From assembly GCF_003334785.1 (NCBI RefSeq), contig NZ_QOWV01000003.1: a stretch of DNA of 64,000 nucleotides; one strand, 5' to 3'. Below are positions 54,901 to 57,900 of the stretch, piece after piece. This DNA is from Escherichia coli (lineage in GTDB: Bacteria; Pseudomonadota; Gammaproteobacteria; Enterobacterales; Enterobacteriaceae). The position numbers are program-made. The stretch's first letter is position 1. Every line of letters begins with the position of its first letter.

Positions 54901-57900
54901 GAGGCTGAGCTAGACCCGCTTGATGGCAGTTACGTTCTTAATTATGGCGAAGAGAAGGGTATCGAGGGGGTTGCTAAAGGCTATCTGCAACTCACTGCGC
55001 AACCAGCACATTTACGTAACATTATTAGCGACGGTTATTCAGAAGCTTCGGTGTTCAAAACTGCCGGAAGCGACGCTAAAGGCGGTTGGTTTTTCACCTC
55101 CGGTTGGCCGGTAATTAAACCCGATACGCTTTTGATCAATAAAGTCCATGCAGAAAGCCTAAGGCTTGATTGGCTGGCTAAGACCACGCCTCCAGTCGCT
55201 AGTGTTCATCCTACCGTGCCTCTTGCCGCTCCTGCCCCTACTATCGATAACGAGTATGTTAATCGAAAGTATTACACTAAGAATCTGTCGTGGTTATGCT
55301 CTGAATATCTAAAGCATCGGCGCAAGGGCAAGGTATCGGAGTCGGCTATAAGTGATATCCGTAACTATTTCAGCTTTATGATCGAAGCGATGGGTGACAT
55401 TCAGTTGGAAGATTTTGATCGCGATTTCCTCCGGGCTTATGAGAGCAAACTGCGCACGATCCCAGCAAACCGTAATTTAGTCAAAGCTAAATATGGAGTG
55501 AAAACGCTGGATCAGTTAATCGCCAAAGCGGCAGAATGCGGCGATAAATTGATGACTGAGGAATCCGTTAGGAAGTATATCAACGGCATTTATGGTGCAA
55601 TGAAGTGGGCTGTTGCTGACGGTAAGCTACTGAAATCGCCATGCGAAAACTTTTTTCCATCCGATGATAAAGATGAGCGAGATCAGGATCACACTGACAT
55701 ATTTGAACCGCATGAAATTAAAGCGATTTTTTCGTTACCGTGGTTTGAGGCTGGAACTGTTGAACGCAATGCGCAAGGGCGATTCCATCAATATTGCCCG
55801 TTTAACTATTGGGCACCTTTGCTGGGCTTGATGACGGGGGCGCGAGTTAATGAAATCGCTCAGTTACTGCTGAGTGATGTTCTGGCAGACGACGGCGTCT
55901 ATTATTTGAACCTTGAAAGCGATAATGAAAGCGGAAAGAAACTCAAAAATGCTAATGCTCGCCGCAAGATTCCGCTCCATTCAAAGCTGATTAGTCTCGG
56001 TTTCATCGACTACGTGAACGCCTTAAAAGATGCAGGGTATACCCGTCTCTTCCCGGAGCTTAAACCACATAAAACAAAAGGCTATGGTAGGCCAGTTTCC
56101 GCATGGTTCAATGAATCGTTGCTTGCGGGGCGGTTGAAACTCGAGAGGAACAGAAGCAAATCTTTCCATTCTTTTCGCCACTCAGTTTCGACTTTGCTCA
56201 AGGAGAAGGGCGTTAGCTCAGAATTACGAGCGCAGCTACTTGGGCATGTGCGCGGCGAAACTGAAACGGAAGTGCGATATAGCAAAGACCTCAAACCAAT
56301 TCATATGATTGAAGTCGTGGAGAAAATTGATTTTTCGTTACCTGATATAGCGGAATTCAACATTCCTGACGGGCTGGATGCTGTCAGAGATGCGTTGCGA
56401 AGAAAGCGTGGCAAACAAACAGGTTGAATCAGTTACTATTCAGTTGAGTGATGCTTGAATGCGCTGGGACGCTTCCTGGCGCATTTTTTATTAAGGGTGG
56501 TGGATTTCATAGTGCTGAATTTGGAGACGCTCAAAACACGTTTGGTGAAACTTGATGACCTACGATTGCACCCGCAGCCCTTCTACGCTTTCTGATGGTA
56601 GATTTATCACTGTTTTAATGCTGGCCTCTATGTTGCCAATGATGTCTTCGCGCGGGCCGCTGCGCCAGTCATCGCTTGCGTAAAAAGCGTCGAGAACCGT
56701 AGTCATGCTTTTAGGGCTGACAAAGGCGCGAATCAGGTAATAGCAGTCCGGGTCATGCAGAGAGTTACCAAACGAAACAACATCGATCCCGTGGCGTTGG
56801 TGTAGGGGAACACTGATTTCCTGCATAATGGCGTGAAAAGCGGCACCGCTGCCTTTGCGTAAGGTGTATTGCAGTATCTCGACGGTTCTCAAAGCATTAT
56901 CTCCGCGTCGCCTCTGGACGGCTCCCTTGTTGATAGCAATAAAGTAAACCGGACTGGGCCATGAAGCTACTGCTAATCAGACAGTCATCCGTAAGCAAAA
57001 GCTGCGATATGCGGTTCAAACGCGCTGTAAGGCTCTCTGGCGAGTGTTTTAAAGAAGGTAGTCGAAATCATGGTGCAGAATTCGCGGCGCTCTCATAGAG
57101 TGACTGGCGAAGCCAGTTGAAACAAGCGTAGCGGAGTTCGAGCAATCAATGAGAAATCTGGGCGAGCTTTAAGCTTTACCGCGCTTCTTAACTTTTGAGT
57201 CTGTTTGGCTCTATAAGGATAAGCCTGCCGCCGTGGAAATTTTCGGACGCTATGCCTGAGAGGGGCGCTTCCAAACCTAGGGCATCCACTTTTTCGCTCC
57301 CAACTTATCTGGCTGCATTTACACCGCGAACACGTTGAACGTTAGCAGCTTCTGGTTCGTATTTGGTTGTTACGCAGGAGAGGTAAAAACGGCAGGTTTA
57401 CTTTTGACGGCAACGCCATAAGACACCAAACAGCAGAGAAGTGTAATTGTTAAAAATGTTAAAACATAACTTGTTCTTTAAGATGTAAACCCTTCCTCGG
57501 GGGGGAAGCCGGACATATCAACCATAAGGCCATCTGAGAAGATAGCCTGTAGGTTGCTCGGTTCCCCTTGCCAGATGAAGATCAAGTCTTCCTCGTGGTG
57601 TGACGACCTTTCTTGAAAGATGCATTATGCGCAAAAGAAGCTACTCAAGAATCCGCCGATAGCTACTTTCACCCTCTGCTTGGCTGCATCAAACGCTTGC
57701 GCGCCCTACCTACCACAATCAACGTTACGCAGAGTTCCCATCCTGACGTCTTCCGCTAAACAGCGGTGATCTCCACCTACCCGGACCGGTTTACCGCATG
57801 AGGTAGGTGTCAGGAGAGAAGCTAGCACACCATCATTTTAAAGAAAAGTCATATATATCATATGGCTGCGTTCATATTCTGAACGCAGTTATCGATGTTA

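What the first reader, a model, noticed from the sequence alone, without database searches (positions are those of the whole stretch)
56893..57897. One-kilobase ORF desert inside the island
No ORF of 60 aa or more exists on either strand between the small alpha+beta protein gene and the DUF1643-like pseudogene. Manual minus-strand translation gives several protein-like stop-free segments (for example ...VDALGLEAPLSGIASENFHGGRLILIEPNRL... and ...HHEEDLIFIWQGEPSNLQAIFSDGLMVDMSGFPPEEGF...) in different frames, as expected for a gene destroyed by multiple frameshifts. A structured non-coding RNA is the alternative. A perfect 9-bp inverted repeat (CTGCGTTCA-tattc-TGAACGCAG) at 57863-57885 could be a terminator or binding site.
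Basis: seen in the sequence. Interest (0 to 1): 0.5.

Follow-up and report, generated by a model that had tools for sequence, protein, structure and literature searches.

The report
Non-coding backbone of a small island
The one-kilobase gene-free stretch is not one wrecked gene but a patchwork of conserved non-coding modules (plus a 45-base stump of a small gene) in a 7.3-kb mobile island at the leuX tRNA gene of E. coli, and one 370-base module is conserved better than the neighbouring genes, so it probably has a function nobody has described.

Summary
56893-57897 is the longest ORF-free gap (no ORF of 60 aa or more) in the window, and it is unannotated in 662 of 5,426 complete E. coli genomes. 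It lies in a 7.3-kb island bounded by a 28-nt repeat of the tRNA-Leu(CAA) 3' end. This is SpLE5 of O157:H7 Sakai.

The 'single decayed gene' reading fails:
- About 60 related loci never hold one gene there.
- All six frames show neutral synonymous fractions (0.18-0.23).

The interval is a mosaic:
- the NIPSNAP upstream flank;
- a second copy of the integrase-3'/terminator module (M0);
- a 45-nt 3' stump of an unannotated 71-aa gene that is intact in sister islands;
- a family-wide ~100-nt block (MA), which may encode a 33-aa peptide on the minus strand;
- a 370-nt element (MB);
- a conserved palindrome at 57866-57888.

MB has sharp borders and 21 known variants. Its core is 92-100% identical where flanks and the DUF1643 gene are 62-99%. 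It has five covarying base pairs, no Rfam match and no plasmid or phage similarity.

My best guess is that MB is a structured regulatory RNA or RNA leader of the island. A DNA cis-site is the main rival. Function is unproven and interest is moderate.

The parts
54402..54429 (+). attL: 28-nt 3' end of tRNA-Leu(CAA) leuX, left border of the island (context)
   Evidence: A perfect 28-nt direct repeat lies at 61716-61743. The tRNA is at 54342-54426.
54517..56427 (+). 636-aa tyrosine integrase of the island (context)
   Evidence: Its relatives were used to collect 31 sister loci.
56450..56560 (+). M0 copy 1: integrase terminator hairpin plus the conserved ~80 nt that follow (context; direct repeat of the copy in the desert)
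   Evidence: Terminator-like site at 56457-56486. Alignment A4 and nhmmer.
56893..56990 (.). M0p: upstream flank of the minus-strand NIPSNAP gene; travels with that gene
   Evidence: nhmmer hits only in loci that also carry NIPSNAP next to it (L004, L007, L009, L010, L019, L020, L022, L024, L030).
56991..57127 (+). M0 copy 2: second copy of the integrase-3'-end/terminator module. It holds a degenerate hairpin at 57021-57044 and a T-run at 57047-57050.
   Evidence: Alignment A4. There are 2-3 copies per island, always in integrase orientation. Homology starts in the last ~17 nt of sister integrase genes. The hairpin is kept in 81% of cells, with U.G pairs on the + strand only and no significant covariation.
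57128..57172 (+). 3' stump (15 codons, ..VAEFEQSMRNLGEL*) of a conserved 71-aa gene (orf71, phrog_27283) whose first ~170 nt are deleted here
   Evidence: Alignment A9 shows the missing ~230 nt in L003, L007, L014, L021, L022 and L023. The intact ORF is at L003 5830-6045. There are 83 protein clusters, PHROG E 9e-19 and no Pfam match. In the first 19 codons L003 and L022 differ by 5 synonymous changes and 1 non-synonymous change (read).
57188..57289 (-). Candidate 33-aa ORF (GTG start, MDALGLEAPLSGIASENFHGGRLILIEPNRLKS) that overlaps the MA core and converges on orf71; coding status unresolved
   Evidence: The frame is open in 25 of 35 distinct MA cores, and the conserved blocks map onto the start codon and the LGL..GIA..NF..LI residues. 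In L016 the stop overlaps the next ATG. Against coding: changes by codon position are 29/19/31, the synonymous share is no better than in a + frame, and no protein relative was found.
57212..57320 (.). MA core: block conserved across the whole island family (TATAAGGA..GAAATTTTCGGACGCWATGCC..CCTAGG..CACTTT). It always lies ~20-40 nt after orf71 where that gene is intact.
   Evidence: Alignments A2, A7, A8. nhmmer gave 54 hits. Also present in an E. fergusonii plasmid copy of the island and in 6-kb ColE1-type Klebsiella plasmids. It is less conserved than its flanks: 85% in Sakai against 98.5-100%.
57321..57440 (.). MA extension, present only in islands that also carry MB
   Evidence: nhmmer matches to MA positions 160-229 only in MB-bearing loci. 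Alignment A5.
57444..57812 (.). MB: 370-nt highly conserved non-coding element with sharp borders (TAATTGTTAAAAATG ... GGTAGGTGTC). It comprises an AT-rich head (57444-57489), a long imperfect hairpin (~57502-57567), an invariant core (57591-57760) and a covarying terminal hairpin (57774-57809).
   Evidence: 21 distinct variants from several enterobacterial genera and from metagenomes. Present in 596 E. coli genomes, at 99% identity or more in 577. The core is 91.8-100% identical where flanks and the DUF1643 CDS are 62-99%. Five pairs show double changes against 1.1 in shuffles, 0/500. There is no conserved ORF, no Rfam hit, and no plasmid or phage similarity.
57866..57888 (.). Palindrome CTGCGTTCA-N5-TGAACGCAG at the left edge of the variable cargo slot; operator-like site or hairpin
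   Evidence: Exact motif in 33 loci, both with and without MB or DUF1643. L002 has GTGCGTTCA..TGAACGCAC, a compensated outer pair. Not scored as a terminator.
61458..61481 (.). Second, degenerate copy of the palindrome (CTGGTTTCAaaatcCGAACGCAG) between the HTH gene and attR (context)
   Evidence: Repeat family D5. Conserved in L016, L017, Sakai and metagenome loci.
61716..61743 (+). attR: right border of the 7.3-kb island (context)

Best explanation
SHOWN. The desert is the non-coding backbone of a small (7.3-kb) integrative island at leuX, SpLE5 of O157 Sakai. Related islands sit at tRNA-Gly and tRNA-Leu genes across Enterobacterales. The shared backbone is: large tyrosine integrase, M0, a 71-aa gene, the MA block, a cargo slot, a resolvase-like serine recombinase, a second cargo slot, a membrane protein, an XRE-type HTH protein, and attR. 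The cargo slots hold swappable genes that are often candidate defence genes.

In this window the 1-kb gap arises for four reasons:
1. A NIPSNAP cassette is flanked by two copies of the integrase-3'/terminator module M0, and the second copy lies in the desert.
2. The 71-aa gene has lost its 5' ~170 nt, leaving 15 codons.
3. The MA block is present as in all family members.
4. An optional 370-nt module, MB, and a palindromic site fill the space up to the first cargo gene.

INFERRED. MB is a functional element read at the nucleotide level. Most likely it is a structured non-coding RNA or RNA leader of the island. It could be transcribed rightward from its conserved AT-rich head, or be part of the leftward cargo transcript that runs into the MA small ORF. 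It would act in the island's own regulation. Two mutually exclusive hairpins at its AT-rich end, both using CTTCC, would allow an attenuator-type switch. MA is inferred to be a short convergent unit opposite orf71: either a 33-aa peptide or an antisense-overlapped regulatory block. The palindrome, with its second copy near attR, is inferred to be a binding site for an island DNA-binding protein, either the HTH regulator or the recombinase.
For: Anatomy:
- att repeats and identity with SpLE5.
- Family architecture.
- Module map by nhmmer, with all modules co-oriented with the integrase.
- M0 repeats.
- orf71 deletion.

Non-coding nature:
- Neutral synonymous fraction in six frames.
- No conserved small ORF in MB.
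- No protein relatives.

Constraint on MB:
- The core is the best conserved segment in all nine comparisons, better than the adjacent CDS.
- The borders are sharp while the flanks remain alignable at ~60-70%.
- There are at least five different right-hand contexts.

Structure of MB:
- Five pairs have compensatory changes (3 in the terminal hairpin). None of 500 shuffles and no slid control reaches that number.
- A long self-complementary arm was detected independently as a reverse-strand self-hit.

Exclusions:
- Not an imitation of a known plasmid oriT or phage cos site: no similarity in 72,556 plasmids, 50,697 phages, or elsewhere in 5,426 E. coli genomes.

Palindrome:
- Present in 33 loci, with one compensated change and a second copy near attR.
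Against: - No transcript evidence was available.
- No sigma-70 promoter or intrinsic terminator inside the desert passes the scan.
- Folding z-scores are only -1.8 (+) and -1.5 (-).
- Single-sided deviations from pairing are strand-neutral: 10 G.U-type events, 10 A.C-type and 12 other. Apart from the terminal hairpin, pairing is therefore not visibly selected on either strand.
- MB varies so little that covariation power is low, and part of its conservation may reflect recent spread by recombination.
- MB is absent from about two thirds of sister islands. Some carry an unrelated ~530-nt module instead. It is therefore not essential to the backbone.
- The MA peptide has a dN/dS that is not low, and it is frameshifted in about 4 of 35 variants.
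Confidence: 0.5

Rival explanations
1. MB, perhaps with MA and the palindrome, is a DNA cis-acting site rather than an RNA. It could be an origin of transfer used by a helper conjugative element (an 'iOriT' island), an origin of replication for the excised circle, or a recombination or accessory site for the island's serine recombinase.
For: - Conservation is mainly of primary sequence, including unpaired stretches.
- Deviations from pairing show no strand bias.
- The element has an AT-rich head followed by hairpins, and a fixed orientation.
- The island has no transfer genes of its own.
- Islands that carry only an oriT are reported to be common in E. coli (bioRxiv 10.64898/2026.01.13.699239).
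- The recombinase resembles gamma-delta resolvase and Gin invertase.
- An ATCCTG hexamer, the IncP-type nick core as I recall it, sits in the invariant core. About 0.2 such hexamers are expected by chance.
Against: - There is no similarity to any of 72,556 plasmids even at E up to 10, to phages, or to a second place in E. coli genomes such as an ICE. An oriT imitation needs a helper with the same site.
- No iterons or DnaA boxes were seen.
- No dyad-symmetric half-sites at resolvase or invertase spacing were found by eye.
- MB is missing from most sister islands.
Confidence: 0.25
2. The interval is one protein-coding gene wrecked by several frameshifts.
For: - Stop-free, protein-like stretches exist on the minus strand.
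- The neighbouring DUF1643 gene is itself frameshifted.
- One true gene stump is present at 57128-57172.
Against: - No homologous island has a continuous gene there.
- Synonymous fractions are neutral in every frame.
- Frames differ among MB variants.
- No specific protein relatives were found.
- MB is conserved better than real genes next to it, which is the opposite of decay.
Confidence: 0.04
3. The desert encodes one or more micro-proteins below the 60-aa cut-off. The main candidate is the 33-aa minus-strand ORF in MA, and such small genes rather than RNA or DNA signals explain the conservation.
For: - The minus frame of MA is open in 25 of 35 distinct cores.
- The conserved nucleotide blocks coincide with a GTG start and the LGL/GIA/NF/LI residues.
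- In several variants an SD-like GGGAG or GCGGGA lies 4-8 nt upstream.
- In L016 the stop overlaps the next gene's ATG.
- The + frame has stops in L017, L018 and L019.
Against: - Changes by codon position are 29/19/31, and the synonymous share is 37%, matched by a + frame at 38%.
- Third positions of TATAAGGA and CTAGG are invariant.
- Window and Sakai differ by ~11-12 non-synonymous and ~4-5 synonymous changes in 17 codons (my count).
- No homologue was found in 5.8 billion proteins.
- None of the MB small ORFs is conserved.
Confidence: 0.2
4. The modules have no function of their own. They are leftovers of cassette shuffling (duplicated integrase flanks, untranslated gene flanks), and MB looks conserved only because it spread recently between islands by recombination.
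For: - The structure is mosaic, with abrupt identity changes at module borders.
- The island is visibly decaying: truncated orf71, a frameshifted DUF1643 gene, and an IS629 insertion in Sakai.
- MB is optional.
Against: - MB core exceeds its flanks in identity in every one of nine comparisons. This includes the most distant (L019: 92% against 67-84%) and islands whose integrases are only 36-37% identical.
- The flanks are homologous but diverged, so the whole block was not simply transferred together.
- Compensatory changes occur in hairpins.
Confidence: 0.12

Closest known systems
SpLE5, the 'phage-like element' at leuX of E. coli O157:H7 Sakai
   Same: It is the same element. The desert lies between ECs_5246 (NIPSNAP) and ECs_5248 (DUF1643), with 96% identity overall and 99.3% in MB.
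   Different: Sakai carries an IS629 insertion and other cargo in the third slot. SpLE5 is only delimited in the record. No function or RNA is annotated for this interval, and no paper in the searched library names the flanking genes.
Defence-carrying integrative islands and satellites with cargo hotspots (P4-like satellites, PICI, Vibrio phage-defence elements)
   Same: It is a small tRNA-integrating element with a conserved backbone and swappable slots that hold candidate defence genes (PDC-S60, PDC-S31, PDC-S07, AbiJ and AIPR neighbours).
   Different: The backbone differs: a 636-aa integrase, a resolvase-like serine recombinase, the 71-aa gene and long non-coding modules. No capsid-redirection, primase or AlpA genes are present, and there is no similarity to phage DNA.
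iOriT islands (genomic islands that carry only an origin of transfer; Ares-Arroyo et al., bioRxiv 2026)
   Same: It is an att-delimited island with an integrase and no relaxase or mating-pore genes, and it carries a conserved, oriented non-coding element with hairpins.
   Different: No helper element or plasmid with a similar sequence was found. I could not compare MB with that paper's 52 oriT families.
Island-encoded small RNAs of enterobacteria held in Rfam (for example the Salmonella Isr RNAs, as I recall them)
   Same: It is a conserved intergenic element inside a horizontally acquired island.
   Different: No Rfam family matches at E up to 1. MB is long (370 nt), lacks a recognisable promoter and terminator, and has no expression data.
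Integron gene cassettes
   Same: Cargo genes sit between repeated, co-oriented non-coding units (M0, MA), and cassette junctions are precise.
   Different: There is no IntI-type integrase and no attC-like imperfect palindrome with conserved cores. The repeats are ~110-140 nt and only ~65% alike, which fits homologous exchange between islands better than site-specific capture.

Membership tests
Frameshift-decayed protein gene (pseudogene) | An intact orthologue exists in related elements | tested here: not met
   No locus among 31 genomic and 30 metagenomic relatives has a continuous gene over the interval. The exception is the 45-nt stump at 57128-57172, whose intact 71-aa orthologue exists.
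Frameshift-decayed protein gene (pseudogene) | Translated similarity to known proteins | tested here: not met
   The MA minus frame has no candidate in 5.8 billion proteins. The MB minus frame finds only weak summed matches to Kelch-like repeat proteins.
Frameshift-decayed protein gene (pseudogene) | Residual codon-biased substitution pattern | tested here: not met
   The synonymous share is 0.18-0.23 in all six frames.
Known RNA families (Rfam 15) | Covariance-model match | tested here: not met
   Only the tRNA matched at E up to 1 in 53000-60000. The non-coding modules of five sister islands gave nothing.
Structured non-coding RNA (generic) | Compensatory base-pair changes beyond controls | tested here: met
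   Five pairs and eight cells show double changes, against 1.1 and 1.2 in shuffles (0/500) and 0-2 in slid controls. Three of the five pairs are in one hairpin.
Structured non-coding RNA (generic) | Strand-specific tolerance of G.U over A.C | tested here: not met
   There are 10 G.U-type and 10 A.C-type deviation events.
Structured non-coding RNA (generic) | Thermodynamic stability above shuffled sequence | tested here: inconclusive
   z is -1.77 on the + strand and -1.50 on the - strand.
Structured non-coding RNA (generic) | Own promoter and terminator, and a detectable transcript | tested here: inconclusive
   No promoter-like or terminator-like site in the desert passes the scan, and only weak candidates are visible by eye. 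Transcripts cannot be tested with these tools.
Intrinsic (Rho-independent) terminator | G+C-rich hairpin directly followed by a T-run | tested here: inconclusive
   M0 copy 1 qualifies (56457-56486). The desert copy (57021-57050) is degenerate and was not called. The 57866-57888 palindrome has no adjacent T-run and was not called.
oriT of a mobilisable island (iOriT) | Sequence shared with the oriT of a helper plasmid or ICE | tested here: not met
   No plasmid match at E up to 10 and no second site in E. coli genomes.
oriT of a mobilisable island (iOriT) | Relaxase nicking and mobilisation | not testable with these tools
   This needs conjugation assays.
Serine-recombinase site (res, hix or gix type) | Dyad-symmetric half-sites 26-34 bp apart, in two copies | tested here: inconclusive
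   The palindrome has 9-10-bp arms and a 5-bp spacer, and two copies lie 3.6 kb apart. It does not resemble hix or res sites as I recall them. The MA block has one half-site-like CGTCCGAAAATT without a partner. No binding test was possible.
Type I toxin-antitoxin (small peptide plus antisense RNA) | Hydrophobic membrane peptide overlapped by an antisense transcript | tested here: not met
   The 33-aa peptide is not hydrophobic. The antisense overlap is only inferred from a + strand terminator ~190 nt downstream in one clade.

The most novel reading that the evidence does not exclude
MB (57444-57812) may be a new, roughly 320-400-nt non-coding RNA class specific to a family of small defence-carrying islands in Enterobacterales. 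It would work with the convergent orf71/MA unit as the island's control module, for example sensing helper or stress signals to switch excision or cargo expression. The hypervariable patch in MA would act as a specificity determinant.
Probability: 0.25. Interest if true: 0.6.

Novelty: new member of a known kind. Interest (0 to 1): 0.4.

Why it matters
About one E. coli genome in eight carries this element, including Nissle 1917, ATCC 25922, strain 042 and O157:H7. Its most conserved part is a stretch that no annotation names.

If MB is an RNA or a cis-site that controls excision, maintenance or transfer, it would explain how a 7-kb island with no transfer genes persists and swaps candidate defence genes across genera. 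It would also give a handle for tracking or manipulating such islands.

The work also exposes an unannotated but widespread 71-aa gene family, and it shows that the 'desert' is a by-product of cassette shuffling around repeated backbone modules. If MB proves inert, the finding reduces to ordinary mobile-element debris.

Tried and rejected
- **Rfam.** E-value mode on 53-60 kb and gathering mode on five sister islands returned only tRNAs and an unrelated Yersinia sRNA.
- **Plasmid and phage similarity.** MB has none. MA matches only island copies on plasmids and a short piece in ColE1-type Klebsiella plasmids, about 680 nt away from RNAI, so it is not part of that origin.
- **RNAalifold on MB.** The long-range pairs are invariant and uninformative, so I kept only local hairpins.
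- **RNAalifold on M0.** It gave a meaningless consensus (-3.8 kcal). The explicit terminator hairpin shows no significant covariation.
- **MB versus MB2.** MB2 is the alternative ~530-nt module in L016, L023, L030 and L032. The alignment score is at random level.
- **Integrase-gene remnants in the desert.** All tblastn hits are at chance level. Only the last ~17 nt of sister integrase genes align at the start of M0.
- **orf71 function.** No Pfam, NCBIfam or PADLOC match. The AlphaFold model (pLDDT 76) is three helices with no significant PDB neighbour.
- **orf71 linked to a ~1-kb non-coding stretch in distant bacteria.** Rejected: one gap holds an uncalled ORF and the other holds what look like terminal inverted repeats of a small Tn3-type element.
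- **Promoters.** Hunting by eye for sigma-70 and sigma-54 promoters in M0, MA and MB found only weak or non-conserved matches.
- **Recombinase sites.** Resemblances to resolvase or invertase half-sites rest on my recall only and lack a dyad partner.
- **Literature.** Nothing was found on SpLE5 RNAs or on ECs5246-5248.
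Full report
**1. The observation**

Between the NIPSNAP gene (56560-56892, minus strand) and the frameshifted DUF1643 gene (from 57898, minus strand) there is no ORF of 60 aa or more on either strand. This is the longest such gap in the 64-kb window; the next are 790 and 703 nt. Shuffles of the same 1005 nt lack such an ORF 14% of the time. The stop-codon pattern is therefore simply that of non-coding DNA. What is unusual is a kilobase of it.

**2. Where it lies**

The window is E. coli. The interval is 100% identical to Nissle 1917, ATCC 25922 and strain 042. 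It occurs in 662 of 5,426 complete genomes, and none annotates a feature there.

A perfect 28-nt direct repeat of the 3' end of tRNA-Leu(CAA) at 54402-54429 and 61716-61743 delimits a 7.3-kb island. Its genes, in order, are:
- a 636-aa tyrosine integrase;
- NIPSNAP;
- the desert;
- a DUF1643 pseudogene;
- a serine recombinase that resembles gamma-delta resolvase and Gin invertase;
- a 281-aa protein whose N-terminus matches candidate defence family PDC-S60;
- a membrane protein;
- an XRE-type HTH protein.

In O157:H7 Sakai the same element is annotated as 'phage-like element SpLE5', and the desert lies between ECs_5246 and ECs_5248. I found no paper dealing with these genes or with RNAs from SpLE5.

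**3. Relatives**

Sister islands sit at tRNA-Gly and tRNA-Leu genes in E. coli. A search with an integrase alignment returned 31 loci from Enterobacterales and two Pseudomonas. A 19-mer from the desert returned 30 true metagenomic loci plus 13 chance hits.

All share the same backbone: integrase, serine recombinase, membrane protein, HTH protein. Between the backbone genes lie changing cargo genes, including DUF2971/PDC-S31, NUDIX/PDC-S07, DUF6602, AIPR, HNH and GNAT genes.

**4. The desert is a mosaic**

nhmmer with pieces of the desert shows separate modules, always oriented like the integrase.

(a) 56893-56990 accompanies the NIPSNAP gene wherever that gene occurs.

(b) 56991-57127 (M0) is a second copy of the ~110-140-nt unit that follows the integrase stop codon. 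That unit is a terminator-like hairpin, a T-run and a conserved tail.
- Islands carry 2-3 copies, and cargo lies between them.
- The alignment starts in the last ~17 nt of sister integrase genes.
- The hairpin is kept in 81% of cells, with U.G pairs that work only on the + strand, but without significant covariation.

(c) 57128-57172 is the last 15 codons of a 71-aa gene.
- The gene is intact in L003, L007, L014, L021, L022 and L023. The window, DG351 and L019 lack ~230 nt.
- The gene is real. It has 83 protein clusters down to 45% identity, it matches PHROG 27283, and differences between islands are mostly synonymous.
- It has no Pfam, NCBIfam or PADLOC match. Its three-helix model has no significant structural neighbour.

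(d) 57212-57320 (MA core) is found in nearly all family members, ~20-40 nt after that gene. It also occurs in island fragments on plasmids.

(e) 57321-57440 and 57444-57812 (MB) occur together in about one third of the islands.

(f) 57813-57897 carries the palindrome.

**5. Is anything coding?**

Against seven homologues the share of synonymous differences is 0.18-0.23 in all six frames.

In MB, none of five small ORFs survives across the 21 variants. One has a premature stop in six variants. Another changes frame at homopolymer indels.

The two I inspected are repeat proteins, one of them Kelch-like, and their scores sum over six repeats.

- For coding: the frame is open in 25 of 35 distinct MA cores. 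The conserved nucleotide blocks coincide with a GTG start and the residues LGL..GIA..NF..LI. In L016 its stop overlaps the next ATG.
- Against coding: changes by codon position are 29/19/31. Its synonymous share (37%) is equalled by a plus-strand frame (38%). No relative exists in 5.8 billion proteins.

I leave this 33-aa ORF as unresolved.

**6. MB**

MB has 21 distinct variants from several enterobacterial genera and from metagenomes. They align with sharp borders (TAATTGTTAAAAATG ... GGTAGGTGTC) and at least five different right-hand neighbours.

Segment by segment, the MB core (57591-57760) is the best conserved piece in all nine comparisons, at 91.8-100%. The DUF1643 coding sequence is 62-99% and the MA extension 68-96%. 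Some of these islands have integrases only 36-37% identical to this one. The flanks remain alignable but diverged. Simple co-transfer therefore does not explain the contrast.

Local hairpins show five pairs with compensatory changes, three of them in the terminal hairpin 57774-57809. Shuffles give 1.1 on average, none of 500 reaches five, and slid controls give 0-2. A long imperfect hairpin (~57502-57567) also shows up as a reverse-strand self-match.

The case for RNA structure is limited:
- folding z-scores are -1.8 and -1.5;
- single-sided deviations from pairing are strand-neutral, with 10 G.U-type, 10 A.C-type and 12 other events;
- no promoter or terminator passes the scan;
- Rfam has nothing.

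MB has no similarity to plasmids (E up to 10), to phages, or to a second site in E. coli genomes. This argues against imitation of a helper's oriT or cos site. Other islands carry an unrelated ~530-nt non-coding module in the same place.

**7. MA and the palindrome**

MA core is less conserved than its flanks in close relatives. In Sakai it is 85% identical against 98.5-100% for the flanks, with the changes packed into ~45 nt. It is therefore patchy or hypervariable.

The palindrome is present in 33 loci, with or without MB or DUF1643. It has a compensated outer pair in ET665, and it marks the left edge of the cargo slot. A degenerate second copy sits between the HTH gene and attR in several islands.

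**8. Interpretation**

The anatomy is shown. The desert exists because a cassette insertion duplicated the integrase-flank module, a small backbone gene was truncated, and two non-coding backbone modules (MA, MB) and a palindromic site fill the rest.

The mechanism is inferred. I judge MB most likely a structured regulatory RNA or RNA leader of the island (about 0.45). A DNA cis-site is the main rival (about 0.25). Micro-protein and 'no function' readings come behind, and the single-pseudogene reading is essentially excluded.

**9. Verdict**

The feature is real and not an artefact. It is a new member of a known kind: conserved non-coding or regulatory modules of a mobile island. Interest is moderate because function is unproven and the comparative signal for RNA structure is limited.

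Noticed in passing
L003 5830-6045 (intact); window 57128-57172 (stump): An unannotated 71-aa gene family (MATYxxIQxDxKxRxGxTVKTCWIAHVKELNGL..APNRIS..PCP..) is widespread in Proteobacteria and metagenomes. It has 83 clusters, matches phrog_27283, and has no Pfam domain. PGAP does not call it in E. coli TUM18530.
   Followed up: partly
window 61237-61939: This is the third largest ORF-free gap in the window (703 nt), between the HTH gene and the next island. It holds attR, a degenerate copy of the tRNA 3' end (61600-61627), a repeat of the integrase-proximal sequence (61634-61655 against 54485-54506), and the second palindrome copy. It probably contains the recombination arm sites.
   Followed up: partly
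window 61744-64000: A second island follows in tandem directly after attR. In Nissle 1917 it carries an AbiJ-NTD4 gene and IS remnants, so leuX carries an array of islands.
   Followed up: no
window 451-1240: This is the second largest ORF-free gap in the window (790 nt). I did not examine it.
   Followed up: no
L004 5540-5560 and 6085-6100; window 58424-58441: The NUDIX cassette of strain DG351 is flanked by a short direct repeat GCCAAYAAACGA. The DUF2971 cassette junction lies exactly at the end of M0 copy 1. Both cassette junctions are precise.
   Followed up: partly
L016 11720-11900, L023, L032; L030 15640-15700: The alternative non-coding module MB2 contains two direct repeats AACCTCTTCTCTGGG about 95 nt apart. 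L030 has one repeat and lacks the segment between them, as if it had been deleted by repeat recombination.
   Followed up: no
L008, L018, L019: Some contigs carrying this enterobacterial island are labelled with unrelated organisms: Collinsella sp. MAG (100% identical to E. coli), Chryseobacterium sp. 18061 (near-identical to the Citrobacter contig L017) and Martelella alba. These look like contamination or mis-binning in public assemblies.
   Followed up: no
window 59131-59976: The N-terminal 160 residues of the 281-aa hypothetical protein match candidate defence family PDC-S60 (E 6e-27). Sister islands carry PDC-S31 (DUF2971) and PDC-S07 (NUDIX) relatives.
   Followed up: partly
window 57220-57262 against Sakai L082 ~17010-17055: A 45-nt patch in the MA core differs at ~16 positions between this strain and O157 Sakai, while the sequences on both sides are 98.5-100% identical. 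This suggests a gene-conversion patch or a specificity region.
   Followed up: partly
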